NCBI GenBank assembly: GCA_049583465.1 | Contig: JBAUVX010000405.1 | Coordinates: forward strand, 1 to 37,282 | DNA: 37,282 nt | Source: Waddliaceae bacterium | Lineage (GTDB): Bacteria > Chlamydiota > Chlamydiia > Chlamydiales > Waddliaceae | Direction: 5' to 3' | Part shown: positions 2 through 37,282 of the stretch, piece after piece | How the letters are laid out: every line of letters starts with the position of its first letter | Numbering within the stretch: the stretch's first letter is position 1 | Program-made: the position numbers and the translations under genes | Notes under the pieces: model-generated | Told to the model about the DNA's origin: nothing | Database searches by the model: none | The model's input: the letters and a program-made list of their open reading frames with translations, nothing else

Positions 2-466
2 GTTGTCCTTTCGGCCAGAAATCAAGAGCGCTTGAAGGAATATGCGCATTGCCTATTAGCATTCATTCAACATTTTTCATCACAAGAAGAAGAGCTTCAT
101 ATTGACCTTGCCGATCTTGCCTACACATTTCAAGTAGGCCGTGAAGCGATGGAAGTGCGAGTTGGAATGATTGTCCATTCAATGGAGGAGCTGGAGGCGA
201 AATTGCAGGCCTTCATTAATGAGGAAGAGGATGTTGAAGATGTCTATCTTGGACAAGTGAAAACCCATAAAAGGACTTTGGCGGTTTTTGAGGCAGACGA
301 AGATATGGCTAACACGATTGATGCCTGGATCAGCAAAAGGAAATACAACAAGCTTCTCGATTTATGGGTGAAGGGTCTTCTCTTTGATTGGGATAAGCTC
401 TATACAAACAAAACACTCAAACGTATTAGTGCGCCGACGTATCCTTTTATCAAAGAACGGTATTGG
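2..466 (+). other. C-terminal flanking (linker) subdomain of an upstream KS that lies outside the window
   Basis: LSARNQERLKEYAHCLLAFIQ ... DLAYTFQVGREAMEVRVG ... LWVKGLLFDWDKLY ... APTYPFIKERYW (Trp 464-466). The same ~170-aa element follows each of the 8 complete KS domains. Confidence 0.85.
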
Positions 467-11629: not shown

Positions 11630-14600
11630 AGATAAAGATCGCCTCTGTTCTGAGGTGATGTGTTTTGAAGAGGTTTGGGAGGAACAAGAGCGACCTTTAA
11701 CTTCCCCAAAGACTCATGAGCAGGCTCACACGATCCTTTGCTTTCTCTCGAACTTAGACAATCAGCAGGCTTGTGAGGAGGCATTACACGCAATTGATCC
11801 ACGAACCCAGATCATTTTTATTGCTGAACAATCGGATAATCGGAGGGAAAACTACCGGGTTGTGCGAGAAGATCGAGAAAGCTATCAAAGCGCTTTACAG
11901 CAGATTCGACACGATCATGAGCACATTGATGGGGTGTTTTATTTATGGCCCCTAGAAGATCCTTGCTGGATTCGAGACCCATCTCCCATCGCAATGCTTT
12001 TGCAAGCGCTATCGATCACCCAACTCCAACCCCGACGGATTTTATTGGCAGGAGAGTTTACAGGGGATTTAGAGCGCTGTTACCTGGAATCATGGATAGG
12101 CTTTGAACGTTCTTTAGAACTGGTGATGCCTAACACTCAGCTTGCAGTGATTTTCCAAAAAAATACTCAAGAAACAGCGTGTGGCAATATCCCTGATTGG
12201 ACAGAGAAGCTTTGGAGAGAGTTCACACACAATCAAACACAGAGTATTTGCTATCAACACAACAAACGGCATGCCTTGCAGATCCATCCAAGAGAGCCTA
12301 ATTTGGATGAGCAATATCTAAACAATTTAATGCTAGGAACGATTTTAATTACTGGAGGTTGCGGGGGACTGGGATTTCTTTTTGCAGAATATTTTGCTAA
12401 AAACATGCACACGAAGGCGATCATTTTAACCGGCCGCTCTCCTTTGACCTCTCAGAAAAAGTCCATGATTAAAGAGTTAGAAAAACTTGAGTGCTCAGTC
12501 TACTACTTGCAAGCTGACGTGTGCGATCAGGAAGCAATGAAGAATGGCTTGAACCGGATCAAAAAACATGTCGGCCCAATCGCCGGTGTGATTCACTCAG
12601 CCGGGATCAACGAGTTTAAAACCATCATCGAAAAAGATTTCAAGGAGTTTCAAGAAGTTTTAGATCCAAAGGTAAAAGGGACACTCATTTTAGATGAAGT
12701 GTTAAGCGAAGAGCCTCTTCATTTCATCTGCTACTTTTCTTCAAGTTCAGCAATATTAGGTGATTTTGGCGCTTGCGATTATGCCGTGGGAAATCGTTTT
12801 GAAATGGCTTATGCACACTATCGCAATGCACTTCTAGCGCAAGGGAAACGCTTTGGCAAAGCCATTGTGATCAACTGGCCTTTCTGGAAAGAGGGAGGGA
12901 TGCAATTTGGAGGAAGCGAGCAGGCCGACTTTTATTTAAAATCCAGTGGACAGCAGCACTTAACCACCAGTTCGGGGGTTGAGGTTTTTAAAAAAATTCT
13001 TTGCCAGCAGCAAACCCAGCATTTAGTGCTTGTCGGACAACCTAGCCGAGTGCATCGTTTTCTAGGGTTGACAACCGCGCCCTTAGGGGTGGATAGCCCT
13101 ATTGTCCCGGCATCGCCAACGCCTACTCAGGGAGAAAGGCGTCCTGAGATGCGGGGATTGAGTGTGGCGCAATGTCTTGAGTGGGATTTGAAAGATCATA
13201 TTAGCCGGCTGCTTAAGATTCCTTGCGAAGCTTTGGATAGGGAAACTCATTTAGCCGAATACGGCCTTGATTCCATCAGTTTAATCGAATTTGCAAGGAT
13301 TTTGAGTCATCATTACGGCTTTGAAGTGACACCGGCCTTGTTTTTTGGCTATTCGACCTTAGAGAAATTGATTCATTATTTTTTAGACACGCACGCAAAA
13401 AACATCACAGAGTTTTATCAGGGAACCCAGGGAAAATCGGTAGTGAATGCGCCATCTTCTACCTTGGATAAACCAAAAAAAGCACGTTTCAAGCGTTCTC
13501 GGTTTTTTGCACAGCCACAGCATTCCACTCTTGAATCGATTGCAATTATTGGGATGAGCGGTCGCTTTCCTCAAGCCCGATCTATTGAAGAGATGTGGGA
13601 GATTTTGTCAGCGGGTAAAGATGCTGTTGAGGAGATTCCGGAAGATCGATTTGATTGGAGGCAATATGACGGAGAGGTGCGTTACAAATGGAGTGGTTTC
13701 ATCCCTGGCATTGAAGAGTTTGATCCACTGTTTTTTGAGATTTCTCCGCGAGAAGCAGAAGAGATGGATCCTCGTCAACGCCATCTGATTCAAGAATCCT
13801 GGAAAGCTTTGGAAGACGCAGGTTATGGCGTCGAACAGATTAAACAGCACAAGATAGGCATGTTTGTAGGAGTGGAAGAGGGAGGTTATGGTTTCCAAGG
13901 AGAAGGAAATATCACTGCCAACCATAATGGAATTTTAGCCGCTCGCATCGCCTACTTCTTAGACCTTCACGGCCCAACAATGGCGATCAATACAGCTTGT
14001 TCCTCGGGTCTTGTCGCAGTCCATCAGGCGATTTTGAGTTTGCGCAGTGGCGAGTGTAGCACAGCCATTGCCGCAGGAGTGAATTTAATGCTCAGCCCGG
14101 CGCCATATGTGGCGATGAATCAGGCTGGAATGCTGTCATCTGATGGAAAATGTTTTGCCTTTGATCACAGAGCCAACGGCATGGTACCGGGAGAAGCCGT
14201 GGCGGTTGTCATTTTAAAAAAATTATCAGATGCAAAATCCGATAAAGATCCCATCCACGCCATAATCCGAGGAAGCGGCATTAATTACGACGGGAAAACA
14301 AATGGGATTACTGCACCTAGCGGTGTTTCTCAAACTGCTCTGTTAACAAGCGTCTATCATACCCATCAGATCAATCCTGAAGAGATCGATTATGTTGTCG
14401 CGCATGGGACCGGAACAAAGCTGGGAGATCCCGTTGAAATTAACGCCTTGAATGATGCGTTTGAAGCCTACACTCAAAAACAAAACTATTGTGCCCTGAC
14501 ATCAACAAAAAGTAATTTTGGACACACCTTTGCAGCTTCGGGTGTGGTGAGTCTGATCAGCCTTGTTGAAGCACTCAAACGCGAGAGCATTCCCGGCAGT

Positions 14601-32600: not shown

Positions 32601-35600
32601 AAAGAGACGTCGTTGGCAGTTTTTGGTGCCGATGAAGATTTACAAAACGCCATGCAAGCCTGGGCAAGTAAAGGAAAGTACAATAAACTGCTCGATCTTT
32701 GGGTCAAAGGTCTGGCTTTTGATTGGAATCAATTGTATGGGGCAAACAAGCCAAAGCGCATCAGCGCACCGACCTATCCCTTTGCCAAAGAGCGCTATTG
32801 GATAGAAGCTCAGGATTTGTCGGCTAACAAGAGTATCCAACCAAGCAAGAAAAATCCTTTAACTTCTCTTGAAGAGTACGTTGCAGACGATCAAGGGCGT
32901 GTTTCGAGATCATTGTCTAAACCATTGGGAATAACATTAGCTGCTTTGTCGGAAGAACAAAATTTTTCTGTACGAGGAAATCAGATGCAACAAGCTGTAG
33001 ACATTTCCTTGCCGGCAGACAAGCAAATGTCTTCTACTGCAAGTCATCATGATCCTGGAGAGTCTTCTCTCTTGAAAGAAACCCTGCTAACAGAACTGGT
33101 CATAAGCTTAGCGAACATTTTATACATGAAGCCAAGCGAGATCGACATGAATAAATCGTTTGTTGAGATAGGCTTGGATTCCATTGTGGGAGTAGAATGG
33201 GTACAAGAAATCAATAAGAAGTATTCGCTCAATATCGTTGCGACGAAAGTTTATGATTATGTGACTCTTCAAGAGTTTGCCAAATTTTTAAAAAAAGAAT
33301 TGGATAAGAAAGGAACGGTACCAACTCAAGAGCCATCAAAGCCGCGGCCTTCAGTATCGGTAGAGCAACCACAGAGTACAAAGTCGGAGCCACAAAACGT
33401 GTTGAGTTCCGGGGACAATTACGGCCTTGTTCTTTCTACAGTTAGTTCTTTTGAAAACATCTCTTTAAAAAAATGGGAAATTCCTCCTCCCTCCTGTGGT
33501 GAGGTAACCGTTAAAGTAGAAGCCTCTGCCGTTAATTTTCCTGATACATTGTGTGTAAAAGGATTATACCCCACCATGCCGGACTATCCCTTTGTTCCTG
33601 GTTTTGAAGTGTCGGGAACAATTTCTCGTCTTGGTGATCAGGTCTCGGAGATAAGTTTGGGAGATGAAGTGATTGCGTTCACAGGCGGGCAAATGGGCGG
33701 ACATGCTCGTTATGTCAATGTTCCTGTAGAAAACTTAATGCGCAAGCCTCAATGTGTTTCGTTTGAAGAGGCCTGTAGTTTACCTGTTGTTTTTGGGACC
33801 GTGTATTACGCATTTGAAAAAGGGAAATTATCTCCCGGAGAACACGTGTTAATACAAACAGCTACCGGAGGCTGTGGACTCATGGCTCTTCAATTGGCAC
33901 GATTAAAGAGTTGCGTGTGCTATGGCACATCGAGTCGTCCAGAAAAATTAGCGATACTGAAGGAGCTAGATGTCCCTTATGTGCTGAATTATCAAGAAGA
34001 TTTTGATCGAAAAATTAAAGAGATCACTAATGATCGAGGAGTAGATGTTGTATTAAATACGTTGTCAGGCGATGGCATCCAAAAGGGGTTAAACAGTTTA
34101 GCAGCGTCGGGGCGGTATGTGGAAATTGCTGTACACGCACTAAAAACGAGTCCCAAATTAGACCTTTCTCAGTTAGTCCACAACCAGTCTATTTACAGCA
34201 TTGATTTACGCCGATTACGAGCGCAAAAAGGTGGCAATAAAAATAGCGAAGCTTTTCACACCATGATTTCTTGGCTTGAGTCCGGGATCGTGGTCCCGGT
34301 TGTTTCGAGAATTTACCCAGTTCACCAAATCGTCGATGCTTTGACGTATGTCTCTCAAGGAAAACATATTGGCAAAGTGGTGATTAGTCATACATGTCAA
34401 CACATGGTGGATTGTATGGATCATTGCTTAAACCGGATGTTAGAGCAAAAAAGAAAGGCTGAATCACGGGAATGTTCGAGAGAAAGCAGCCCCTCCATTG
34501 CGATAAACAAAGCGGGAAAAGAGATGACCGAAGCGATTGCAATTATTGGAATGTCCGGTCGATTCCCCAAAGCTCCACATGTCGATAGGTTCTGGGAGAA
34601 TATCTCACAAGGGAAAGATTGCATTTCGGAAATTCCCACAACCCGTTGGCCAATCGATCAATATTATGATTCAAATAAACATGTGCCCGGAAAGACCTAT
34701 TGTAAATGGATGGGGATGTTGGATGATATCGATCAGTTTGACCCCTTGTTTTTTAATATTTCCCCCGCAGAAGCTCAGTGGATAGATCCTCAACAGCGTT
34801 TGTTTTTAGAAAATGCCTGGCATTGCGTAGAAGATGCAGGACTCAATCCAAGTTCTTTATCGGGCAGCTCTTGTGGAGTGTTTGTTGGCTGTGGCGGCAG
34901 CATCTATGGAAGCACAATGCATGAGAAAGAGCTGAGTGTACAGAGTTTAATGGGAGGAAGTTCTTCCATTTTATCGGCTAGAATAGCCTATGTACTCAAT
35001 TTGAAAGGCCCTTGTCTAGCGATTGATACAGCATGTTCTTCTTCTCTAGTCGCCATCGCGGAAGCCTGCAACAGTTTGGTGCTTAAGACAAGTGATCTGG
35101 CACTAGCAGGAGGAGTGTGCGTCTTGTCAGGGCCTGCGCTGCATATCATGACAAGTCATGCAGGGATGTTGTCTGAAGATGGGCGCTGCTTTGCCTTTGA
35201 TGCAAGAGCCAATGGTTTTGTTCCTGGAGAAGGTGTTGGCGTTGTTTTACTCAAGCGGCTTTCAGATGCTATCCGTGATCGCGATCAAATTTATGGAGTC
35301 ATCAAGGGGTGGGGGATCAAGCAGGATGGAAAAACAAACGGAATGACAGCACCAAGCGTGAATTCACAGATTTCGTTGGAAAAAGAGATTTACAATCGTT
35401 TTGGTATTAACCCTGAAACGATTTCCTTGGTTGAAGCTCATGGGACAGGAACAAAACTTGGAGATCCTATCGAAGTCGAGGCGCTAATCGAGTCTTTTAG
35501 ATCCTATACAGATAAGCAGCGATATTGTGCTTTAGGTTCGGTCAAAAGTAATATAGGTCATCTTCAATCTGCATCGGGAATTGCGGGAGTGATCAAAGTC

Positions 35601-37282
35601 TTACTCGCATTACAGAAAAAAATGCTTCCACCCACCATACATTTTGAGAAGCTTAATCAACATATCTCTCTAGAAGATAGTCCATTTTATATCAATACCG
35701 AGTTGCAGCCGTGGGAAACATCTTCAGGAATTTTACGATGTGCAAGTGTGAGTTCGTTTGGTTTTAGTGGGACGAATGCTCATTTAGTGATTGAGGAATA
35801 TCGTCCCCAAAATACTCAATCAGGCCGAAAAACAACTGTTATCGACCTCCCTACCTCAGTGATTATCCTCCTTTCAGCGAAGAACAAAGAACGTTTGCAA
35901 GAGTATGCGAAAAGCCTTGTGACATTTATTCAAAACAATAAAGACAATCAAATCAATCTGGCTGATCTTGCTTACACACTACAGGTAGGTCGCGAAGCAA
36001 TGGAAATCCGTCTAGGAATGGTTGTGCGTTCAATGGAGGAGCTAGAAGAAAAGTTGCAGGCCTTTGCCGAGGGGAAAGAAGAGGCCGAGGATTTATATCT
36101 TGGCCAAGTCAAGGGAAATCAAGAGACAATAGAAGCCTTTACTGCTGATATAGATTTGCAAAAAGCAATGGAAGCCTGGATTGTCAAAGGGAAGTACAAC
36201 AAACTTCTCAATCTTTGGGTCAAAGGTCTGGTTTTTGATTGGAATAAACTCTATGGTCCAAATAAGCCAAAGCGCATCAGCGTACCAACCTATCCCTTTG
36301 CCAAAGAGCGCTACGGGCTTAAGACTCAGGTTTTGCCGATAAACTTACCGATTAACCCCCCTTCTGCGCTTAGTACCGAGGAACCTTCTGAAGTGATGTA
36401 TTTCGAAGAGGTGTGGCAAGAACAAGAGCTTCACTTAAATCACCAAACAGTCAGCACTGAACAAAACGTTAAGACGATTCTTTGTTTCCTCTCAAATATA
36501 GAAAAGCAACAGGCCTTTACTGAAACAACCAAAGCCCTTGATCCTCAAGCGCGAGTGATCTTTATTGCTGAACAATCAGGTGACCGGACACAAAATTACC
36601 GCGTTGTACGAGGAGAACAAAATAGTTATCGACAAGTTTTACAAAACATTAAGAAAGAATATGACCACATTGACGGGGTTTTTTATTTATGGCCACTGGA
36701 AGACCACTGTTGGATTCGAGATCTCTCTCCCATCACCATGCTTCTGCAAGCACTATCGATGACCCAACTGCGATCTCGACGGATTTTATTGGCAGCAGAG
36801 TTTCACGATGACGTAGAGCGTTGTTACCTAGAATCATGGGTAGGCTTTGAACGTTCTCTAGGACTGGTGATGCCTAACACTCAGCTTGCAGTGATTTTCC
36901 AAAAACAGACCCAAGAAACGACCTCTGGCAATATCCTTGATTGGACAAGCAAACTTTGGAAAGAGTTCACACAAAAACAAACACAAAGCGTTTGCTATCA
37001 TCAAGGCAAACGACATGTATTGCAGATCCATCCAAGAGTTCTTAAATGGGATGAGCAGTTTCTAAAAGATGCTTTGCGAGGAACGATTTTAATCACCGGA
37101 GGCTTTGGAGGACTGGGTTTTCTTTTTGCCGACTATTTCGCTAGAAACACACAAACGAAGAGAATCATTTTAACCGGTCGCTCTGCTCTAACCCCTCAGA
37201 AACAGTCCAGACTGAAACAGCTTGAAGAATTAGGTTGCTCGGTTTTTTACTTACAAGCCGATGTGTCCGATCTAGAAGCCAT
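11604..37282 (+). CDS. Giant modular type I polyketide synthase subunit, trans-AT type; 3' end outside the window; not listed in the ORF track
   Basis: ATG 11604-11606 directly follows an in-phase TAA at 11598-11600 and overlaps the gene 1 stop by 26 nt. GTG 11655 and ATG 11658 are alternative starts. The phase (positions = 0 mod 3) reads as PKS to the last base (MLEQQKHTEDKDRLCSEVMCFEEVW ... LQADVSDLEA). None of the 22 plus-strand track ORFs after 11629 is in this phase. Domain order: KR-ACP-KS-DH-KR-ACP-KS-KR*-cMT-ACP-KS-KR-ACP-KS-DH-KR-ACP-KS-ACP-ER-KS-KR(partial). Confidence 0.9.
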   Translation, partial: MLEQQKHTEDKDRLCSEVMCFEEVWEEQERPLTSPKTHEQAHTILCFLSNLDNQQACEEALHAIDPRTQIIFIAEQSDNRRENYRVVREDRESYQSALQQIRHDHEHIDGVFYLWPLEDPCWIRDPSPIAMLLQALSITQLQPRRILLAGEFTGDLERCYLESWIGFERSLELVMPNTQLAVIFQKNTQETACGNIPDWTEKLWREFTHNQTQSICYQHNKRHALQIHPREPNLDEQYLNNLMLGTILITGGCGGLGFLFAEYFAKNMHTKAIILTGRSPLTSQKKSMIKELEKLECSVYYLQADVCDQEAMKNGLNRIKKHVGPIAGVIHSAGINEFKTIIEKDFKEFQEVLDPKVKGTLILDEVLSEEPLHFICYFSSSSAILGDFGACDYAVGNRFEMAYAHYRNALLAQGKRFGKAIVINWPFWKEGGMQFGGSEQADFYLKSSGQQHLTTSSGVEVFKKILCQQQTQHLVLVGQPSRVHRFLGLTTAPLGVDSPIVPASPTPTQGERRPEMRGLSVAQCLEWDLKDHISRLLKIPCEALDRETHLAEYGLDSISLIEFARILSHHYGFEVTPALFFGYSTLEKLIHYFLDTHAKNITEFYQGTQGKSVVNAPSSTLDKPKKARFKRSRFFAQPQHSTLESIAIIGMSGRFPQARSIEEMWEILSAGKDAVEEIPEDRFDWRQYDGEVRYKWSGFIPGIEEFDPLFFEISPREAEEMDPRQRHLIQESWKALEDAGYGVEQIKQHKIGMFVGVEEGGYGFQGEGNITANHNGILAARIAYFLDLHGPTMAINTACSSGLVAVHQAILSLRSGECSTAIAAGVNLMLSPAPYVAMNQAGMLSSDGKCFAFDHRANGMVPGEAVAVVILKKLSDAKSDKDPIHAIIRGSGINYDGKTNGITAPSGVSQTALLTSVYHTHQINPEEIDYVVAHGTGTKLGDPVEINALNDAFEAYTQKQNYCALTSTKSNFGHTFAASGVVSLISLVEALKRESIPGSLHCENENAYIRWEQSPFYVNKSTKAWPKSEANKRMGAVSSFGMSGTNAHMVVESYSCHEKERGEAFPSYLLPISAKTAEALQEKIQHMLKALQHIKGGKEGLTAMGYTLQMGRHHFSHRCAIVVEDLEDAVYVYNKIDAGERSANVFQGKVKRDFNGQKVIEQSITELLIKCRTLEENPTAYRDILCALADFYCQGYGIAWDLLYGEEKPHRIPAPTYPFAKEHYWIKSREAKLSCLVQSNRRSQLNPLLQENTSTLSEQRYTSTLTGEEFFLNDHRIKGKKVLPGAAYLEMAYEGVKHSCGLSDGQSVQLKNIVWAQPIVVEGSPVDVAMGLSPEENGEISYEIFTERANKSGDSVVHSQGVAVCKTSAETPTLNLANLKKKLNQQRLDPEACYTTFTKVGLDYGPAHKALEEVYAGDSEVLAKLTLPASIKETKEQFTLHPSLLDGAFQASVGLGMSGSKELQPLVPFALESLEVFNGCEETMWAWVRFAEGGPTAGKVHRLSIDLCDDAGKVCIQIRGFSARELVGEISEESEKVGTLIVKPIWQEKPLDDRQQLFHYRERRVYLCGFKQAGKELQDKAGFSLELGTEHKDLAEQFSAAAVQLFEDIQRILKEKHQGQTLLQVVVPSQGPKQVFAALSGLLKSAHVEHPQLFGQVIVVSETISATELMSKLEENKKQPQDDHIYYEGGRRLVSFLEEIHSVDVEKTIPWRDHGVYLITGGAGGLGQIFAEEIARKCTSTTVILTGRSALSNNKQEKLQELKRSGADVQYKTIDVTDKQAVAALIRKIQHDFGKLNGIIHSAGVINDHFILKKGAEEFQTVLAPKVLGTINLDQATKTLKDLDFFILFSSSAGSLGNAGQADYATANAFMDAFAHYRNTLLGSKRTGTTSSINWPLWKAGGMDVDQATKKMMKERLGLVAMETAAGIEAFYQGLSAQVPQVMVLTGLLKRMRHKLLSFSKNTSKTQVASTLAKTVSGVDAGHLLDRIQQALIQVISKLLKLRVEDLEVDAEFSEYGFDSITLTDFANRLNERYQLELTPTVFFEHPTIGRFAKYLSEAHQSTFAVQKPAQMETIQIAEVEISEERLRLRRRCRFAHTRSSSASFDSDILDPIAVVGMSGCFPEACDIHEFWKNLSEGKHCIQTIPKERWDWRAFYGDPQQENNKTNVKWGGFIEGVDAFDSLFFGISPREAQLMDPQQRLLMTYIWLALEDACYPASTLSGSNTGIFVGTASSGYTGLITNAKLPIEGYSSTGIVPSVGPNRMSYFLNVHGPSEPIETACSSSLVAIHRALVAMRTGECDQAIVGGVNTIIGPEAHISFSKAGMLCQDGRCKTFSKQANGYVRGEGVGMLFLKSLEAAERDGDHIYGLIRASAENHGGRANSLTAPNPKAQRDLLIRAYQQAGIHPETVSYIEAHGTGTELGDPIEINSLKAAFKDLTEEMGSSQVQEVRCGLGSVKTNIGHLELAAGVAGVIKVLLQLKHKRLVKSLHCDEINPYIALKESPFYVVQESQEWRPLQDANGKPLPLRAGVSAFGFGGVNAHVVLEEYIPKDGRESKEKGVALPSSPLIILLSAKSRECLQDYTKNLLTWIQNDKDHQINLVNLAYTFQVGREAMEMRLGMIVHSMEELEQKLQVFIKGEEVAEGLYVGQVKRNKDALDVFTADEDLQQALEAWASKGKYSKLLGLWVKGLIFDWGKLYGANKPRRISAPTYPFAKERHWVEDGLGNTTKAGLKEAQKTSAELVPMSPVWEAVVLEKMELLSEKDKQMLIIGGTQCQVRALKELYPQANNLAIKTNADIDAIATQLYTQDFNHLIWVSSHFPLRSLDSKDLIQEQEKGVLHLFRILKALLSLGYGEKELAWTLITTATQSVCKDDRVNPTHASIHGFIGSLAKEYPQWKIRLLDMQEDEEWPVRDMFRLPYDRKGNALAYRAGEWFVQKLLPVRECLSQNRLYKTGGVYVVIGGAGGLGEAWTQWMIENYQAQIIWIGRREKQAIQGKLTSMAAIGSKPIYIQADARYQESLQKAYQQIKQQHAHIHGVIHSALDLFDYALANVDEKRFQSILSVNIDLSVSIARVFMHEPLDFFLFFSSMAAFTKSGGFSGYSSGCTFKDAFACQLSQACSYPVKVMNWGYWNIGSGSRISEQIKIRQKQSDIKAIEPAEGMTILEKFLNGPLKQMALVKTSKPTAMEGEWVIIYPGTIPSMMNKDISYLIDEPDPNTLAKGLEIQEMESLLYKLLWSCLQSLGLFQKQCFKFSDLRHQEVFIEFYDPWMKEVFSVFCHKGYLKFDGEKYTVENSDKVDLNIAWDEWDRRKKAKQWNEDSDKRAQIVLVEACLRALPEILTGKRQATDVMFPHSSMNLVEGVYQGNRVSDAFNKILAQVLATCIQERLAQDASSQIRILEVGAGTGGATAAILPTLQPFKQQIVEYCYTDLSKSFLFHAEEQYLPQHPFLCTKIFDVEKSLSEQNISADTYDFVIANNVLHATKNIRQTLRNVKAALHKNGLILLNEICNKSLFAHLTFGLLKGWWLQEDDALRIPGSPGLYPQAWEKVLKEEGFDPVLFPAEKVHGLGQQIVVAESNGIVRQKRSGQADHEMPAKALPQSKSQKIQSDSRQYEPINEILKEKSINYFKKLLGKILRIDSNKIDSLESLESYGIDSILIVQINNSLREIFGNISSSLLFEVQTLHALVEYFINNKKEELIKLFGLEYQKVSDHQVSVKETSGMSVDDGNAEANSQPFRESIAIIGISGRYPQAKDLTTYWENLKSGKDCIVEIPEERWSLEGFFHSPIEEAIAQGKSYSKWGSFLEGFDEFDPLFFNISPREAMSMDPQERLFLQSCWAVLEDAGYTRERLSTQKNNSVGVFAGITKTDFGLHGPKLWQQGAHLYPQTSFSSVANRVSYCLDLQGPSMPIDTMCSSSLTAIHVACEYLHQRECEMAIAGGVNIYLHPSGYINLCVQHMLSVDGRCRSFGKGANGFVPGEGVGVVLLKRLSQAIQDQDHIYAVIRGTSVNHGGKTNGYTVPNPKAQEALIQAALEKAGVDARTVSYIEAHGTGTALGDPIEITGLSQAFNKVTEDRGFCALGSVKSNLGHLEAASGIAGLTKILLQMKHKTLVPSLHAEELNPHIDFANTPFFVNRDLHKWKRPVLKINGEEKEYPRIAGISSFGAGGSNAHILIEEYCSEVRQASGKGILFRGPVIIVLSAKDVERLKEYAKSLVTFVQNDKNRQINLVDLAYTLQVGREAMKVRLGMIVHSMEELKDKLQAFIDGKEDVGDVYLGTIKQNKESLFRLQADEDLQTAVQAWMNKRKYSKLVDLWVKGFAFDWDKLYVANKPQRISAPTYPFSRERYWVKRENLPSSLQIKEPSPSIAEKSSEVMCFEEVWQEEELPSTLRTDKHVHTILCFLSNVDKQQVFVEAIKAMNPQTQVLFITEKSEDQRQHYTVVRGERKSYQRALQNIQQDHGHVDGIFYLWPLENPCWIQDLSPITMLLQALSITQLQPQRILLAGEFTDDLERCYLESWIGFERSLGLVMPNTQLGVIFQKNTQKTTCGNISDWTKKLWKEFSHKKTKSVCYQQGKRHALKIFPRVAKLDKQFLNYLLEGTILITGGCGGLGFLFADYFARNTQTKRIILTGRSALTSQKQSRMKQLEKLGCSVFYLQADVCDLEGMKEGLKKAKEHVGPISGVIHAAGINESKTIIEKDFKEFQEVLDPKVKGTLVLDEVLHDEPLEFICYFSSSSAILGDFGACDYAVGNRFEMAYAHYRSALKAQGKRFGKAVVINWPYWKEGGMQFGESEQADFYLKSSGQQHLTTAEGIDIFEKILCQEQTQHLVLVGQPGRVHRFLGLTDEPLRLDSPKVPALPASTKGERRPELRGLSVEQCLEWELKEHVSRLLKIPRESVDTGDNLADFGFDSISLAEFAHILRDHYGFEVTPALFFGYSTLEKLISYFLKEHGKNLAEFYQTAQEKQALNLPSSPIQQSEPVQAKSVQFAARRSDSSNLEPIAIIGMSGRFPQAQSIEEMWEILSAGRDAIEEIPEGRLDWSQYNREVRYKWSGFIPGIEEFDPRFFEISPQEAEEMDPRQRHLIQESWKALEDAGYGVNQIKQHNIGMFVGVEEGGYGFPGEGNITAGHNGILAARIAYFLDLHGPTMAINTACSSGLVAAHQAILSLRSGECSTAIVAGVNLMLSPAPYVAMNQAGMLSSDGKCFAFDQRANGMVPGEAVAVVILKKLSDAESDKDPIHAVIRGSGVNYDGKTNGITAPSGVSQAALLKSVYQTYHINPEEIDYIVTHGTGTKLGDPVEINALNDAFKEYTQKQNYCALTSIKSHFGHTFAASGLVSLISLVEALKRKSIPGSLHCENENDYIHWEQSPFYVNKSTKAWPKHGTNKRVGAVSAFGMSGTNAHMVVESYSCHEKERREAFPYYLLPISAKTQEALQEKIQDILKALQSIQGEKEGLTAMCYTLQIGRHHFSHRCAIVVEDLEEAVYLYNQVKAGERPANVFQGKVKRNFKGQKVIEQSITDLLIKSRTIQEDPATYREILCALADFYCQGYDIAWDLLYGEEKPCRIPAPTYPFAKEHYWKKSRDATADGLVQSSRRSRWHPLLQENISTLSEQCYGSTFTGEEFFLNDHRIKGKQVLPGAAYLEMAYEGVKRSCGLPDGQNVLLKNIVWTQPIVVEDSPVDVTMELFSEENGEISYEIFTERANESGDSVGHSQGVAVCKANGETPILNLADLKKKLNHRSLDLEGCYATFKEMGLDYGPAHKALVEVYTGDHEVLAKLTLPASIKETQEQFTLHPSLLDGAFQASVGLGISGSQQVKPLLPFALESLEVFDRCKETMWAWVRFAEGSTTAGNIHRLSIDLCDDAGKLCIQMKGFSAREPVEEPEAVDTLMVTPIWQEKPLDDRQQLPQYREHRIYLCGFKQTREELQEKAPHVFSLEPDPEQKGLEEQFSSYAVQLFEDIQRILQEKPQGQTLLQVVVPSQGPKQVFAGISGLLKTAHLEHPQLFGQVIAVSEKISATELMSRLKENKKQPQDDQIYYEEDRRLVSVLKEMHSAELEKTIPWRDHGVYLITGGAGGLGLIFAEEITRKCTSTTLILTGRSTLSTEKKDKLKELQRSGAEVQYKKVDITDKEAVAALIREIEHDFGKVNGMIHSAGVINDDYIVNKQTEEFRAVLAPKVLGTINLDQATKTLKELDFFIVFSSSAGCLGSAGQADYATANAFMDAFAHYRNTLLGSKRTGRTYSINWPLWKEGGMDVDQTTKKMMKEHLGLVAMETAAGMEAFYQALSAQVPQVMIMRGLLKRMQSKLFPKQLSKARSTQTDSGIDTGHLLDKIQQALMKVISQSLKLRIEELDIDAEFSEYGFDSITLTDFANRLNQHYQLELTPTIFFEYPTIGRFAKYLNEDHQSVFAIQTPQQKEATEILEDQTSVARPRRRCRFATTAISFAPDSKTTEPIAIVGVSGCFPEAGDIHEFWENLKEGKHCIQEIPQQRWNWRAMYGDPRQESNKTNIKWGGFIEGIDTFDPQFFGISPREAQLMDPQQRLLMTYIWLVLEDAGYSASSLSDSNTGIFIGTGSSGYTNLITNAKLPVEGYSSIGVVPSIGPNRMSYFLNIHGPSEPIETACSSSLIAIHKALISMEAGECDQAIVGGINTILSPDVHISFNKAGMLCQDGRCKTFSKQANGYVRGEGVGMLMLKPLEIAEREKDHIYGLVRSSAENHGGRANSLTAPNPKAQTDLLIRAYRKAGIHPGTVSYIEAHGTGTELGDPIEVNSLKAAFKELAQEMGSGQIQESYCGLGSVKTNIGHLELAAGVAGVIKVLLQLQHKRLVKSLHCDEINPYIELKGSPFYVVQESQEWRALQDSSGKLLPRRAGVSSFGFGGVNAHVVLEEYIPKDGQQSIEDIVDLPSSRVIVPLSAKNRERLQDYAKSLATWIQNDKERQINLVDLAYTLQVGREPMEVRLGMIVHSIKQLEKKLQAFITEAEEIEDLYIGQVQRNKETSLAVFGADEDLQNAMQAWASKGKYNKLLDLWVKGLAFDWNQLYGANKPKRISAPTYPFAKERYWIEAQDLSANKSIQPSKKNPLTSLEEYVADDQGRVSRSLSKPLGITLAALSEEQNFSVRGNQMQQAVDISLPADKQMSSTASHHDPGESSLLKETLLTELVISLANILYMKPSEIDMNKSFVEIGLDSIVGVEWVQEINKKYSLNIVATKVYDYVTLQEFAKFLKKELDKKGTVPTQEPSKPRPSVSVEQPQSTKSEPQNVLSSGDNYGLVLSTVSSFENISLKKWEIPPPSCGEVTVKVEASAVNFPDTLCVKGLYPTMPDYPFVPGFEVSGTISRLGDQVSEISLGDEVIAFTGGQMGGHARYVNVPVENLMRKPQCVSFEEACSLPVVFGTVYYAFEKGKLSPGEHVLIQTATGGCGLMALQLARLKSCVCYGTSSRPEKLAILKELDVPYVLNYQEDFDRKIKEITNDRGVDVVLNTLSGDGIQKGLNSLAASGRYVEIAVHALKTSPKLDLSQLVHNQSIYSIDLRRLRAQKGGNKNSEAFHTMISWLESGIVVPVVSRIYPVHQIVDALTYVSQGKHIGKVVISHTCQHMVDCMDHCLNRMLEQKRKAESRECSRESSPSIAINKAGKEMTEAIAIIGMSGRFPKAPHVDRFWENISQGKDCISEIPTTRWPIDQYYDSNKHVPGKTYCKWMGMLDDIDQFDPLFFNISPAEAQWIDPQQRLFLENAWHCVEDAGLNPSSLSGSSCGVFVGCGGSIYGSTMHEKELSVQSLMGGSSSILSARIAYVLNLKGPCLAIDTACSSSLVAIAEACNSLVLKTSDLALAGGVCVLSGPALHIMTSHAGMLSEDGRCFAFDARANGFVPGEGVGVVLLKRLSDAIRDRDQIYGVIKGWGIKQDGKTNGMTAPSVNSQISLEKEIYNRFGINPETISLVEAHGTGTKLGDPIEVEALIESFRSYTDKQRYCALGSVKSNIGHLQSASGIAGVIKVLLALQKKMLPPTIHFEKLNQHISLEDSPFYINTELQPWETSSGILRCASVSSFGFSGTNAHLVIEEYRPQNTQSGRKTTVIDLPTSVIILLSAKNKERLQEYAKSLVTFIQNNKDNQINLADLAYTLQVGREAMEIRLGMVVRSMEELEEKLQAFAEGKEEAEDLYLGQVKGNQETIEAFTADIDLQKAMEAWIVKGKYNKLLNLWVKGLVFDWNKLYGPNKPKRISVPTYPFAKERYGLKTQVLPINLPINPPSALSTEEPSEVMYFEEVWQEQELHLNHQTVSTEQNVKTILCFLSNIEKQQAFTETTKALDPQARVIFIAEQSGDRTQNYRVVRGEQNSYRQVLQNIKKEYDHIDGVFYLWPLEDHCWIRDLSPITMLLQALSMTQLRSRRILLAAEFHDDVERCYLESWVGFERSLGLVMPNTQLAVIFQKQTQETTSGNILDWTSKLWKEFTQKQTQSVCYHQGKRHVLQIHPRVLKWDEQFLKDALRGTILITGGFGGLGFLFADYFARNTQTKRIILTGRSALTPQKQSRLKQLEELGCSVFYLQADVSDLEA
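11652..13070 (+). other. KR3: ketoreductase (structural + catalytic), N-terminal domain of gene 2
   Basis: Junction motif SEVMCFEEVW 11649-11678. Rossmann motif GTILITGGCGGLG 12336-12374. DPKVKG Lys and FSSSSA Ser present. Tyr 12780-12782 (CDYAVGN). In HSAGINEF, Phe 12615-12617 sits at His+7, so there is no Asp (A-type fingerprint). Confidence 0.85.
13158..13392 (+). other. ACP3: acyl carrier protein domain
   Basis: LAEYGLDSISLIEFARIL. Ser codon 13272-13274. Confidence 0.85.
13533..15278 (+). other. KS3 + flanking subdomain: ketosynthase, elongation-competent, distinct clade
   Basis: ESIAIIGMSGRFPQ. Cys 13998-14000 (NTACSSG). AHGTGTKLGDPVE and SNFGHTFAASG present. Core ends ~14765. The flank is distinct (GYTLQMGRHHFSHRCAIVV...) and ends PTYPFAKEHYW (Trp 15276-15278). 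Confidence 0.9.
15336..16175 (+). other. DH4: dehydratase domain, catalytic motifs intact
   Basis: Starts LNPLLQ. DHRIKGKKVLPG (His 15426-15428). GLDYGPAH and VPFALESL present. LLDGAFQ (Asp 15939-15941). Confidence 0.85.
16221..17460 (+). other. KR4: ketoreductase, catalytic residues intact
   Basis: Rossmann motif GVYLITGGAGGLGQ 16746-16787. APKVLG Lys present. Tyr 17193-17195 (GQADYATANAF). In HSAGVIND, Asp 17025-17027 sits at His+7 (B-type fingerprint). Confidence 0.85.
17553..17785 (+). other. ACP4: acyl carrier protein domain
   Basis: EFSEYGFDSITLTDFANRL. Ser codon 17661-17663. Close paralogue of ACP1 and ACP7. Confidence 0.85.
17934..19763 (+). other. KS4 + flanking subdomain: ketosynthase, elongation-competent
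   Basis: DPIAVVGMSGCFPE. Cys 18444-18446 (ETACSSS). EAHGTGTELGDPIE and TNIGHLELAAG present. Core ends ~19247. Flank ends PTYPFAKERHW (Trp 19761-19763). Confidence 0.9.
19839..21015 (+). other. KR5*: KR-fold domain, paralogue of KR1, with the predicted catalytic Lys replaced by Asn (possibly inactive)
   Basis: Starts MSPVWEAV (cf. MSPVWNAV of KR1). Rossmann motif GGVYVVIGGAGGLG 20469-20510. FFSSM Ser and Tyr 20910-20912 (FSGYSSGCTF) are kept. The Lys of KR1 (LKAKVDV) is Asn here (LSVNIDL, codon 20799-20801). Confidence 0.7.
21285..22355 (+). other. cMT2: SAM-dependent C-methyltransferase domain
   Basis: SAM motif I ILEVGAGTGG 21798-21827. NNVLHATKNIRQTLRNVK and LILLNEI present. Paralogue of cMT1. 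Confidence 0.85.
22452..22685 (+). other. ACP5: acyl carrier protein domain (distinct sequence type, AT-rich coding)
   Basis: LESLESYGIDSILIVQINNSL. Ser codon 22572-22574. Confidence 0.8.
22821..24647 (+). other. KS5 + flanking subdomain: ketosynthase, elongation-competent
   Basis: ESIAIIGISGRYPQ. Cys 23346-23348 (DTMCSSS). EAHGTGTALGDPIE and SNLGHLEAASG present. Core ends ~24137. Flank ends PTYPFSRERYW (Trp 24645-24647). Confidence 0.9.
24720..26138 (+). other. KR6: ketoreductase, paralogue of KR3
   Basis: SEVMCFEEVW starts at 24717. Rossmann motif GTILITGGCGGLG 25401-25439. Tyr 25845-25847 (CDYAVGN). HAAGINES has no Asp at His+7 (A-type fingerprint). Confidence 0.85.
26226..26460 (+). other. 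ACP6: acyl carrier protein domain
   Basis: LADFGFDSISLAEFAHIL. Ser codon 26337-26339. Paralogue of ACP3. Confidence 0.85.
26601..28346 (+). other. KS6 + flanking subdomain: ketosynthase, elongation-competent, twin of KS3
   Basis: EPIAIIGMSGRFPQ. Cys 27066-27068 (NTACSSG). THGTGTKLGDPVE and SHFGHTFAASG present. Core ends ~27833. Flank ends PTYPFAKEHYW (Trp 28344-28346). All landmarks lie at +13,068 nt from KS3. Confidence 0.9.
28404..29245 (+). other. DH5: dehydratase domain, catalytic motifs intact, twin of DH4
   Basis: Starts WHPLLQ. DHRIKGKQVLPG (His 28494-28496). GLDYGPAH present. LLDGAFQ (Asp 29007-29009). Confidence 0.85.
29277..30520 (+). other. KR7: ketoreductase, twin of KR4
   Basis: Rossmann motif GVYLITGGAGGLG 29808-29846. 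Tyr 30255-30257 (GQADYATANAF). HSAGVIND has Asp at His+7. Confidence 0.85.
30597..30830 (+). other. ACP7: acyl carrier protein domain
   Basis: EFSEYGFDSITLTDFANRL. Ser codon 30705-30707. Confidence 0.85.
30969..32801 (+). other. KS7 + flanking subdomain: ketosynthase, elongation-competent, paralogue of KS1/KS4
   Basis: EPIAIVGVSGCFPE. Cys 31479-31481 (ETACSSS). EAHGTGTELGDPIE and TNIGHLELAAG present. Core ends ~32282. Flank ends PTYPFAKERYW (Trp 32799-32801). Confidence 0.9.
33066..33300 (+). other. ACP8: acyl carrier protein of a different sequence type, with Trp at Ser+6 (candidate beta-branching ACP)
   Basis: FVEIGLDSIVGVEWVQEINKKYSLNIVATKVYDYVTLQEF. Ser 33180-33182, Trp 33198-33200. The other seven ACPs have Phe, Leu or Ile at Ser+6. 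Confidence 0.8.
33417..34391 (+). other. ER: MDR-type enoylreductase domain, located after the ACP and before the next KS
   Basis: GEVTVKVEASAVNFPD and PFVPGFEVSG present. The nucleotide-binding site is LIQTATGGCGLMALQLA (TATGGCG 33858-33878). GVDVVLN, GRYVEIA and GKHIGKVVI present. Confidence 0.85.
34530..36317 (+). other. KS8 + flanking subdomain: ketosynthase, elongation-competent, cis-AT-like N-terminal signature
   Basis: EAIAIIGMSGRFPK, then TRWPIDQYYDSNKHVPGKTYCKWMG. Cys 35034-35036 (DTACSSS). EAHGTGTKLGDPIE and SNIGHLQSASG present. Core ends ~35801. Flank ends PTYPFAKERYG, with Gly 36315-36317 where every other flank has Trp. Confidence 0.9.
36390..37282 (+). other. KR8 (partial): ketoreductase, third copy of the KR3/KR6 type; runs off the window
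   Basis: SEVMYFEEVW starts at 36387. Rossmann motif GTILITGGFGGLG 37080-37118. The window ends at ...LQADVSDLEA. Confidence 0.8.
36390..37282 (+). repeat. Supermodule repeat, copy 3 (partial; continues beyond the window)
   Basis: It starts at the same junction motif (SEVMYFEEVW). By hand count, 37110-37282 differs from 25431-25603 at 11 of 173 positions. In this stretch it is closer to copy 2 than copy 1 is. Confidence 0.8.

What the first reader, a model, noticed from the sequence alone, without database searches (positions are those of the whole stretch)
11652..37282. 8.1-kb KR-ACP-KS-DH-KR-ACP-KS supermodule repeated 2+ times, separated by variable single modules
Copy 1 (11652-19763) and copy 2 (24720-32801) have the same seven-domain order. 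Their catalytic codons are in exact register at +13,068 nt (KS Cys 13998/27066, DH His 15426/28494, DH Asp 15939/29007). A few single-codon indels shift this to +13,035 by KS4/KS7. My hand count gives 14 mismatches in 132 nt at the KS3/KS6 start (about 89% identity). A third copy begins at 36390 and is even closer to copy 2 (11 mismatches in the last 173 nt of the window). The copies are separated by different single modules: KR*-cMT-ACP-KS after copy 1 and ACP-ER-KS after copy 2. The assembly line therefore has a three-module period of KR-only, then DH+KR, then a variable module. That predicts a polyketide with a repeating six-carbon motif (hydroxyl, then double bond, then a variable position). 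The ACP-KS segment also has a third paralogue in gene 1 (4088-6280). This points to growth of the synthase by recent tandem duplication and mosaic gene conversion. It also makes the locus prone to recombination and assembly artefacts.
Basis: partly seen in the sequence, partly recalled or inferred. Interest (0 to 1): 0.65.

Follow-up and report, generated by a model that had tools for sequence, protein, structure and literature searches.

The report
Duplicated two-module block in polyketide synthase
A giant soil-bacterial polyketide synthase gene really does contain an 8.1-kb two-module block twice, plus the start of a third copy, but the copies are old (18% diverged), both look functional, and this is an ordinary way for such enzymes to grow.

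Summary
Window 11648-19770 and 24716-32808 align end to end at 81.9% nucleotide and 78% amino-acid identity. The domain order is KR-ACP-KS-DH-KR-ACP-KS, and a third copy starts at 36386. There are no AT domains, so this is a trans-AT polyketide synthase. Contigs from two soil-metagenome runs match both copies exactly at even depth and span every junction, so it is not an assembly duplication.

The "recent duplication" reading fails. Synonymous divergence is dS 0.64. Mismatch at 4-fold sites is 38% and uniform along the block (p=0.67). The longest identical run is 44 nt, and dN/dS is 0.18.

Mosaicism exists elsewhere. Copies 2 and 3 reach 93% identity in the last ~160 nt. A ~480-nt post-KS linker cassette (73-77% identical) follows four KSs, two of which have unrelated cores (52-56%). 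The repeat ends exactly at the PTYPFx5W "exchange unit" boundary.

The copies are each other's closest relatives (external best 53% over KR-ACP-KS, 63-71% for the KS core). Related synthases from other phyla carry motif-bounded repeats of their own.

The hydroxyl / double bond / variable period is plausible. The variable modules are a C-methylating module and a beta-branching plus ER module. Verdict: an orphan member of a known kind, of modest interest.

The parts
2..11629 (+). Gene 1, truncated at the 5' end by the window edge. Domain order: FSD-DH-KR-cMT-ACP-KS-FSD-DH*-KR-ACP-KS-FSD-DH0. Stop codon TGA at 11627-11629.
   Evidence: The frame is open from nt 2. Pfam domains are and motifs.
4085..6286 (+). 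ACP-KS-FSD paralogue of the second half of the supermodule.
   Evidence: It is 73.7% identical to 17550-19769 and 73.1% to 30560-32807. The KS core is 76-77% nt identical to KS4/KS7.
10778..11620 (+). DH at the C-terminus of gene 1. It forms a split module with KR-ACP of copy 1. The catalytic His is replaced by Cys (TGC 10865-10867), so it is probably inactive.
   Evidence: Pfam PKS_DH_N/PS-DH. The alignment shows KDCYVNGKQVLP where the others have NDHRIKGKxVLP. Logan contig 219-11677 matches with 0 differences.
11604..37282 (+). Gene 2. It has at least 8,559 codons with no stop and runs off the window. The start is ATG 11604, overlapping gene 1 by 26 nt, or alternatively ATG 11658.
11648..19770 (+). 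Supermodule copy 1. Approximate domain positions: KR 12336-12893, ACP 13188-13379, KS3 13533-14762, FSD to 15284, DH 15342-16193, KR 16746-17300, ACP 17571-17771, KS4 17934-19244, FSD 19308-19770.
19771..24715 (+). Spacer module 1: KR* (20472-21005, catalytic Lys replaced by Asn at 20799), cMT (21762-22274), ACP (22488-22676), KS5 core (22821-24134), FSD cassette (24201-24650), then a variable linker.
   Evidence: Pfam; KR alignment; FSD identity.
24716..32808 (+). Supermodule copy 2. Approximate domain positions: KR 25401-25958, ACP 26250-26444, KS6 26601-27830, DH 28407-29246, KR 29808-30365, ACP 30618-30815, KS7 30969-32279, FSD 32340-32808.
32809..36385 (+). Spacer module 2: ACP carrying the Trp flag (33105-33290; Ser 33180, Trp 33198), ER (33498-34385), KS8 core (34530-35798), FSD cassette (35859-36338), then a variable linker. 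Predicted to be a beta-branching module with reduction by the ER.
   Evidence: Pfam. The ACP motif IGLDSIVGVEW matches the tandem ACPs that precede an HMGS/ECH cassette and an ER-KS gene in Brevibacillus laterosporus.
36386..37282 (+). Start of supermodule copy 3: pre-KR region and the first 66 residues of the KR. It is cut by the window end.
37118..37282 (+). Tract where copy 3 is 93% identical to copy 2 (25439-25606). Both are about 75% identical to copy 1 there. This is a candidate gene-conversion tract, and its extent beyond the window is unknown.
   Evidence: 145/156. One search places the breakpoint: 33 of 43 informative sites group c2+c3 downstream, against 84 of 240 upstream (Fisher p=4e-7 for the best of ~230 scanned breakpoints).
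19731..19763 (+). PTYPFx5W motif (exchange-unit boundary) at the 3' end of copy 1. The equivalent motifs start at 434, 6248, 10685, 15246, 24615, 28314, 32769 and 36285.
   Evidence: The meaning of the motif is from PMC11260071.
19308..19770 (+). One of six copies of a shared post-KS flanking-subdomain (FSD) cassette. The others are at 90-466, 5843-6286, 24201-24650, 32340-32822 and 35859-36338. Each starts 65-90 nt after the NAHVxLEE motif and ends at PTYPFx5W.
   Evidence: HSPs. One search gives 66-77% nt identity among cassettes, although the KS5/KS8 cores are only 52-56% identical to the others. One search gives the NAHVxLEE motif positions.

Best explanation
The window is part of an orphan trans-AT polyketide synthase from an uncultured soil bacterium. 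A block of two 'exchange units' (KR-ACP-KS plus DH-KR-ACP-KS with its flanking subdomain) was duplicated within the assembly line long ago. It begins about 23 residues after one PTYPFx5W motif and ends exactly at the PTYPFx5W motif two KSs later.

The block now stands at least twice in full, with a third copy starting at the window end. The copies are interleaved with two unrelated single modules. Both full copies have stayed functional under purifying selection.

Each copy should add a beta-hydroxyl two-carbon unit (A-type KR, no active DH) and then an E-alpha,beta-double-bond unit (DH plus B-type KR). The modules between the copies should add an alpha-methyl unit (cMT with a KR that lacks its catalytic Lys) and a beta-branched, ER-reduced unit (KS-ACP with Trp flag, then ER). 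The chain would therefore have a three-module, six-carbon period.

Later, smaller recombination events acted at the two known trans-AT breakpoints, behind NAHVxLEE and at PTYPFx5W. These spread one flanking-subdomain cassette behind six KSs and produced a local copy 2/copy 3 near-identity tract.

Shown here: the repeat, its boundaries, its age, its selection regime, its reality in raw data, and the genome-wise clustering of paralogues. Inferred: the chemistry, the order of evolutionary events, and that copy 3 is complete.
For: Repeat and domains. No Pfam AT (acyltransferase) domain appears in any chunk, which indicates a trans-AT system.

Age and selection:
- Overall dS is 0.64, dN is 0.115 and dN/dS is 0.18. 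For the KS3/KS6 core, dN/dS is 0.09.
- 338 of 891 4-fold sites differ (38%), and this is homogeneous across 22 bins (p=0.67).
- All eight KSs keep the Cys, HGTGT and NxGH motifs. Both supermodule DHs keep His and Asp.

Boundaries: the repeat ends at 19770/32808, which is 39 nt after the first base of PTYPF at 19731/32769. The published exchange-unit definition is in PMC11260071.

Not an artefact:
- Logan contigs of run X1 match with zero differences at depth 8-15 inside both copies. Unique parts have depth 10.8-13.3.
- Contigs 219-11677, 19224-20974, 20951-24745 and 32645-36892 span all five junctions.
- A second sample, X2, holds copy-specific pieces of both copies.

In-situ duplication:
- The best external protein is 53% identical to copy 2 KR-ACP-KS.
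- KS3/KS6-type cores are 63-71% identical between loci and 90% identical within the window.

Recurrence: an alphaproteobacterial MAG (L005+L004) carries a 3.85-kb unit three times at 93% identity, bounded motif to motif. A Clostridiaceae MAG (L002) carries 4.7-kb repeats at 77%.

Chemistry:
- The gene-1 terminal DH has His replaced by Cys. KR1/KR4 lack the LDD Asp, while KR2/KR5 have it. KR* has Lys replaced by Asn.
- The Trp-flag ACP is homologous to the ACPs next to an HMGS/ECH cassette. The predictive value of the flag is stated in PMC10006238.
Against: - No ortholog of the cluster was found, so the duplication cannot be placed on a tree. An unsampled donor PKS cannot be excluded.
- The protein database seems to lack proteins longer than about 2,040 aa, so full-length megasynthase relatives may be invisible there.
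- The product is unknown, and trans-AT PKSs often break collinearity.
- The HMGS cassette and the trans-AT are not in the window.
- Copy 3 is seen for only 897 nt.
- The three-way comparison of copies is nearly a trichotomy: 117, 103 and 63 informative sites for the three groupings. The order of the duplications is therefore unresolved.
Confidence: 0.8

Rival explanations
1. Recent tandem duplication followed by ongoing mosaic gene conversion between the copies.
For: The copies lie in the same gene and the same order. Copies 2 and 3 are 93% identical in the last ~160 nt, with a significant breakpoint. The FSD cassette is shared behind unrelated KS cores.
Against: dS is 0.64 and 38% of 4-fold sites differ, so the duplication is not recent. 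Divergence between copies 1 and 2 is uniform (p=0.67). The longest identical run is 44 nt, against a permutation mean of 39 (p=0.21). No conversion tract is detectable between the two full copies.
Confidence: 0.12
2. Assembly artefact. Either a single block was duplicated by the assembler, or two strain variants of a single-copy block were concatenated.
For: The source is a metagenome. k=31 unitigs are short inside the repeats (0.6-1.7 kb against 3.8-11.5 kb outside). The literature warns that module duplications can be misassemblies (PMC7930024).
Against: The copies differ at 18% of positions. Copy-specific contigs of both are present at the same depth as the unique flanks. Five distinct junctions are each spanned by an exact contig: gene1->c1, c1->KR*, KS5->c2, c2->ACP-ER and KS8->c3. 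A second sample contains both copies. The reading frame stays open through 8,559 codons.
Confidence: 0.03
3. Independent acquisition. The copies were not duplicated in place but were recruited separately by module-block exchange from related trans-AT PKSs. Their similarity would then reflect a common KS or substrate clade.
For: Module-block exchange is the accepted main mode of trans-AT PKS evolution (PMC7930024). The same block order is colinear at 46-49% aa identity in Paenibacillus sp. ACRRX, a Chitinophaga and an alphaproteobacterial MAG.
Against: Internal identity (78% aa over 2,700 residues, 90% in the KS core) far exceeds any external match (53-71%). The same holds inside the alphaproteobacterial MAG (88-96% internal). 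Linkers and non-catalytic regions are also alignable between copies.
Confidence: 0.05

Closest known systems
Trans-AT PKS 'exchange units' and module blocks (Mabesoone et al. 2024, PMC11260071; Helfrich et al. 2021, PMC7930024)
   Same: There are no integrated ATs. The KS is followed by a flanking subdomain that ends in xPTYPFx5W. The repeat's 3' ends fall exactly at that motif, and the secondary breakpoints fall just behind NAHVxLEE. The block is two consecutive exchange units.
   Different: The published cases are mostly exchanges between different assembly lines. Here the same block is reused within one polypeptide, and paralogues cluster by genome. That is the pattern usually ascribed to cis-AT PKSs.
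Module duplication in cis-AT PKSs, the textbook mode of evolution as summarised in PMC7930024
   Same: Growth of an assembly line by internal duplication and divergence. KS paralogues within one synthase are each other's closest relatives.
   Different: This enzyme has no AT domains. The unit duplicated is a bimodule bounded by FSD motifs. Only some of its KSs (KS3/6, KS4/7/a) are monophyletic, while KS5, KS8 and KS_b are unrelated (52-59% nt).
Lacunalide PKS of Gynuella sunshinyii, with a DH-KR-ACP-KS-KR-ACP-KS series that can be deleted at LPTYPFx5W (PMC11260071)
   Same: It has the same pair of reductive exchange units (KR-only and DH-KR) in a long trans-AT line. Bimodule excision at the motif gave functional enzymes, which shows that such blocks are autonomous.
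   Different: No sequence comparison with lcn was made here, and the product and organism differ. G. sunshinyii did not appear among the GTDB hits, although that search was limited by its peptide patterns.
Beta-branching modules with Trp-flagged ACPs and an HMGS cassette (Haines et al. 2013, as cited in PMC10006238), and the Brevibacillus laterosporus ACP-ACP | HMGS-ECH-ECH | ER-KS locus (L001)
   Same: The spacer-2 ACP has the DSxxxxxW flag and closely resembles the L001 tandem ACPs. The ER-KS part is 62% identical to P0002.
   Different: The window has a single ACP fused directly to the ER, and no HMGS cassette lies inside the window.

Membership tests
trans-AT modular polyketide synthase | Multimodular KS/ACP architecture without AT domains integrated in the modules | tested here: met
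   Pfam scans of all 12,400 residues found 8 complete KS domains (gene 1 also begins inside the FSD of an upstream KS), 8 ACP, 8 KR, 5 DH, 2 cMT and 1 ER, and no Acyl_transf_1 hit.
trans-AT modular polyketide synthase | Flanking subdomain after each KS, ending in the LPTYPFx5W motif, and an NAHVILEE motif at the KS C-terminus | tested here: met
   xPTYPFx5W is found after all nine KS/FSD regions; in the one after KS8 the final Trp is replaced by Gly. NAHVxLEE variants are found in all complete KSs. RhiE-like and CurL-like linker Pfam hits are also present.
trans-AT modular polyketide synthase | A free-standing acyltransferase encoded in the cluster | not testable with these tools
   The window holds only the two PKS genes, and no flanking DNA could be recovered.
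Intragenic duplication of exchange units | Copies are more similar to each other than to any other known sequence | tested here: met
   Internal identity is 78% aa (90% for the KS core). External identity is at most 53% for KR-ACP-KS and at most 71% for the KS core.
Intragenic duplication of exchange units | Repeat boundaries coincide with the LPTYPFx5W boundary | tested here: met
   The 3' ends at 19770/32808 lie immediately after the motifs at 19731/32769. The 5' ends of copies 2 and 3 lie about 70-100 nt after the motifs at 24615/36285, behind a variable linker. Copy 1 starts at the gene start. The same boundaries hold in the alphaproteobacterial MAG.
Intragenic duplication of exchange units | Both copies physically present in one molecule | tested here: inconclusive
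   Short-read unitigs support every junction and show even depth. No single read or contig spans a full 8-kb copy.
Ongoing gene conversion / concerted evolution | Tracts of near-identity, or heterogeneous silent divergence, between copies | tested here: not met
   For copies 1 and 2, 4-fold divergence is homogeneous (p=0.67) and the longest run of 44 nt is not significant. The feature is met only locally for copies 2 and 3 and for the FSD cassette.
HMGS-type beta-branching module (spacer 2) | KS-ACP module without KR or DH, whose ACP carries the conserved Trp flag | tested here: met
   The order is KS7-FSD-98-aa linker-ACP(DSIVGVEW)-ER, and no other ACP in the window has Trp at that position.
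HMGS-type beta-branching module (spacer 2) | An HMGS/ECH1/ECH2 cassette in the cluster | not testable with these tools
   The cassette would lie outside the window. It is present next to the homologous ACPs and ER-KS gene in B. laterosporus.

The most novel reading that the evidence does not exclude
One widespread clade of trans-AT PKS exchange units is the KR-ACP-KS unit with a KS3/KS6-type KS, often followed by DH-KR-ACP-KS. This clade may be repeatedly and independently amplified inside assembly lines of at least three phyla: this Bacillota-like soil bacterium, an alphaproteobacterial MAG with three or four copies at 88-96% identity, and a Clostridiaceae MAG.

If so, a subclass of trans-AT PKSs grows by cis-AT-like internal duplication rather than by exchange between clusters. 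The natural duplicates would then map the functional cut sites to within a few codons of PTYPFx5W, and to a second site about 25 residues behind NAHVxLEE.
Probability: 0.45. Interest if true: 0.45.

Novelty: new member of a known kind. Interest (0 to 1): 0.3.

Why it matters
For PKS evolution, this is a clean, raw-data-backed case of a trans-AT assembly line that grew by duplicating a bimodule. Trans-AT lines are usually described as evolving by swapping blocks between clusters, and reported duplications have been doubted as possible misassemblies.

For engineering, the natural boundaries coincide with the LPTYPFx5W fusion site that was validated experimentally in 2024. They also point to a second natural breakpoint behind NAHVxLEE, where one flanking-subdomain cassette sits behind KS cores of different clades.

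For discovery, the cluster is an orphan, with no relative above about 62% identity. It is predicted to make a long polyketide with a repeating hydroxyl/olefin/branched motif. None of this is unexpected in kind.

Tried and rejected
- An exact look-up of the gene-1 product failed. Gene 1 is truncated at the window's left edge, and the ORF lister's TTG at 32 is not its true start.
- A GTDB scan with the ER region found nothing. Two JGI metagenome scans, one with the KS8-to-copy-3 region and one with a three-copy alignment, also found nothing. The window could therefore not be extended, and copy 3 could not be followed.
- Tandem Repeats Finder, Rfam and an inverted-repeat search found nothing relevant. 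Two antisense ORFs of about 150 aa lie inside PKS coding sequence and were dismissed.
- One search showed an apparent zero depth at 10000-11333 and a "goes back 12950" joint. Both were edge effects of where I cut the reference, and both vanished.
- In one search, a multi-record FASTA file was wrongly read as locus L002. The analysis was redone per locus.
- I considered that the B. laterosporus locus might be the orthologous cluster. I rejected this because the architecture differs and only the ER-KS module type is shared.
- I could not run TransATor or transPACT, so KS substrate clades were not formally assigned.
Full report
**What the window is.** The 37,282-nt window (GC 40-47%) is filled by two co-directional genes on the + strand.

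- Gene 1 is open from nt 2 and stops at 11627-11629, so its 5' end lies outside the window.
- Gene 2 starts at ATG 11604, overlapping gene 1 by 26 nt. ATG 11658 is an alternative start. It runs without a stop for 8,559 codons to the window end.
- Pfam scans of overlapping chunks give this order. Gene 1 is FSD-DH-KR-cMT-ACP-KS-FSD-DH*-KR-ACP-KS-FSD-DH. Gene 2 is KR-ACP-KS-DH-KR-ACP-KS / KR*-cMT-ACP-KS / KR-ACP-KS-DH-KR-ACP-KS / ACP-ER-KS / KR...
- No acyltransferase domain is present anywhere. Every KS is followed by a RhiE/CurL-type flanking subdomain (FSD) that ends in xPTYPFx5W. This is a trans-AT polyketide synthase.
- Nothing else was found on either strand: no Rfam families, no tandem repeats and no meaningful inverted repeats.

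**Checking the observation.**

- A self-BLASTN shows one dominant off-diagonal, 11648-19770 against 24716-32808, at offset +13,068 with 81.9% identity over 8,143 columns.
- A codon-aware alignment gives 78% amino-acid identity and nine in-frame indels of 1-4 codons.
- A third copy begins at 36386. The ACP-KS-FSD segment 4085-6286 of gene 1 is a more distant paralogue, at 73-74%.
- For comparison, unrelated KS cores within the window are 52-59% identical.

**Is it an assembly artefact?** The sequence is found in two small soil-metagenome runs of one study.

- Logan contigs of run X1 match the window with zero differences. Depth is 8-15 for copy-specific pieces and 10.8-13.3 for the unique parts.
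- Exact contigs span every junction. Contig 219-11677 covers gene 1 into copy 1. Contig 19224-20974 covers copy 1 into KR*. Contig 20951-24745 covers KS5-FSD into copy 2. Contig 32645-36892 covers copy 2 into ACP-ER-KS8 and on into copy 3.
- Run X2, from a different sample, contains copy-specific fragments of both copies.
- The longest identical stretch between the copies is 44 nt, well below read length, so phasing is straightforward.
- An apparent joint and a zero-depth stretch were edge effects of where the reference was cut. They disappeared.
- No single molecule spanning a whole copy was available, so a small residual doubt remains.

**Age and selection.**

- Overall dS is 0.64, dN is 0.115 and dN/dS is 0.18. 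dN/dS ranges from 0.09 in the KS3/KS6 core to 0.68 in the ACP1-KS3 linker.
- At 891 conserved 4-fold-degenerate codons, 38% of third positions differ. This is homogeneous over 22 consecutive bins (chi-square p=0.67).
- The longest perfect run is no longer than permutation predicts (p=0.21).
- The two full copies therefore stem from one old event and have since diverged independently under purifying selection. The duplication is not recent, and no conversion patchwork is detectable between copies 1 and 2.
- All KSs keep the Cys/HGTGT/NxGH motifs, and both supermodule DHs keep His and Asp. This is consistent with both copies being active.

**Where mosaicism does exist.**

1. Over the ~900 nt shared by all three copies, the relationship is nearly a trichotomy: 117, 103 and 63 informative sites for c2+c3, c1+c2 and c1+c3. 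Downstream of about 12374/25439/37118, however, 33 of 43 informative sites group copies 2 and 3, against 84 of 240 upstream. Fisher p is 4e-7 for the best of ~230 scanned breakpoints. Identity there is 93%, against about 75% to copy 1. The window ends inside this tract.
2. The ~480-nt FSD behind KS4, KS5, KS7 and KS8 is 73-77% identical in all pairs. It is 66-68% identical to the FSD behind the gene-1 KS that ends at 6286, and a further partial copy lies at 90-466. The cores of KS5 and KS8, in contrast, are only 52-56% identical to the others. The cassette starts 65-90 nt after the NAHVxLEE motif and ends at PTYPFx5W.

**Boundaries.**

- The 3' ends of the repeat (19770, 32808) lie immediately after the PTYPFx5W motifs at 19731 and 32769.
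- Copies 2 and 3 begin (SEVM[C/Y]FEEVW; 24717, 36387) about 23 residues after the preceding motif, behind a variable linker. Copy 1 begins at the N-terminus of gene 2.
- Mabesoone et al. [quoted passage not shown] They also note that similarity between natural hybrids drops within about 100 residues behind NAHVILEE.
- The supermodule is therefore exactly two exchange units, and the FSD cassette is bounded by both published sites.

**Duplication in place or independent acquisition?**

- Against 5.8 billion proteins, the best match to copy 2's KR-ACP-KS is 53% identical. The best match to ACP-ER-KS is 62%, from Brevibacillus laterosporus. That database appears to lack proteins above about 2,040 aa, which limits what it can show.
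- A GTDB scan found colinear blocks at 46-49% aa identity in Paenibacillus sp. ACRRX, Chitinophaga sp. YR627 and an alphaproteobacterial MAG.
- KS3/KS6-type cores are 63-71% identical between loci but 90% identical within the window and 88-96% identical within the alphaproteobacterial MAG.
- That MAG carries a 3.85-kb unit three times at 93% identity, bounded motif to motif. A Clostridiaceae MAG carries 4.7-kb repeats at 77%.
- Paralogues thus cluster by genome, which favours lineage-specific internal duplication. Helfrich et al. (PMC7930024) describe duplication as the cis-AT mode and block exchange as the trans-AT mode. They warn that apparent duplications may be misassemblies, and here the raw data argue against that.

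**Predicted function (inference from motifs).**

- The DH at the end of gene 1, which forms a split module with the first KR-ACP of copy 1, has Cys (TGC 10865) in place of the HxxxGxxxxP His. It is probably dead. Copy 1's first module is then KR-only in effect, like that of copy 2, which fits the 90% identity of KS3 and KS6.
- KR1 and KR4 lack the LDD Asp, which suggests A-type and a retained hydroxyl. KR2 and KR5 have it, which suggests B-type, and with the DH an E-olefin.
- KR* next to the cMT has Asn for the catalytic Lys (20799). This suggests an alpha-methyl unit with an unreduced or otherwise reduced beta-carbon.
- The ACP of spacer 2 carries the Trp flag (Ser 33180, Trp 33198). It closely resembles the tandem ACPs that precede an HMGS/ECH1/ECH2 cassette and an ER-KS gene in B. 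laterosporus. According to PMC10006238, the flag has strong predictive value for beta-branching. Spacer 2 is therefore predicted to install a beta-branch that the ER reduces.
It remains untested.

**Verdict.** The repeat is real and correctly described. It is an old, selectively maintained internal duplication of a two-exchange-unit block in an orphan trans-AT PKS. Smaller recombination footprints lie at the known breakpoints. The kind of event is known, so interest is modest. The main value is as a raw-data-backed natural example of exchange-unit boundaries, and of cis-AT-like growth in a trans-AT line.

Noticed in passing
window 10778-11620 (Cys codon 10865-10867): The DH at the C-terminus of gene 1 has Cys where the catalytic His of HxxxGxxxxP should be, while the DxxxQ Asp (11384) is kept. 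It sits in a split module, DH | KR-ACP, across the gene 1/gene 2 boundary.
   Followed up: partly
window 6341-7156 (His 6437, Asn 6929): A DH-like domain keeps the His but has Asn in place of the DxxxQ Asp. It also has a four-residue deletion in the HxxxGxxxxP motif. This pattern is reminiscent of pyran-synthase or enoyl-isomerase variants of trans-AT DHs.
   Followed up: no
window 20472-21005 (Asn codon 20799-20801): The KR paired with the cMT in spacer 1 has Asn for the catalytic Lys. Its gene-1 paralogue (2115-2650, Lys at 2444) keeps the Lys. The two KR-cMT segments are 68-69% identical (1481-2521/19839-20876 and 3194-3981/21567-22354).
   Followed up: partly
window 33105-33290; locus L001 about 4700-5700: The ACP before the ER carries the DSxxxxxW beta-branching flag. 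It closely matches the tandem ACPs that precede an HMGS/ECH cassette in Brevibacillus laterosporus. In the window, the ACP and the ER are fused in one polypeptide.
   Followed up: partly
window 11604-11629: The gene 2 ATG at 11604 overlaps the end of gene 1 (TGA 11627-11629) by 26 nt. An alternative ATG at 11658 lies inside the conserved SEVMCFEEVW segment.
   Followed up: no
L005+L004 (contig CAVUVR010000001.1, 71642-106465), merged coordinates 306-4156 / 10895-14748 / 20631-24433: An alphaproteobacterial soil MAG has a KR-ACP-KS exchange unit three times at 93% nt identity, bounded exactly by PTYPFx5W motifs. A fourth KS of this type is 88-89% identical.
   Followed up: partly
protein searches: No hit in the 5.8-billion-protein collection was longer than about 2,040 residues. 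Full-length megasynthases therefore seem to be absent or cut there, which limits searches for orthologs of giant PKS genes.
   Followed up: no
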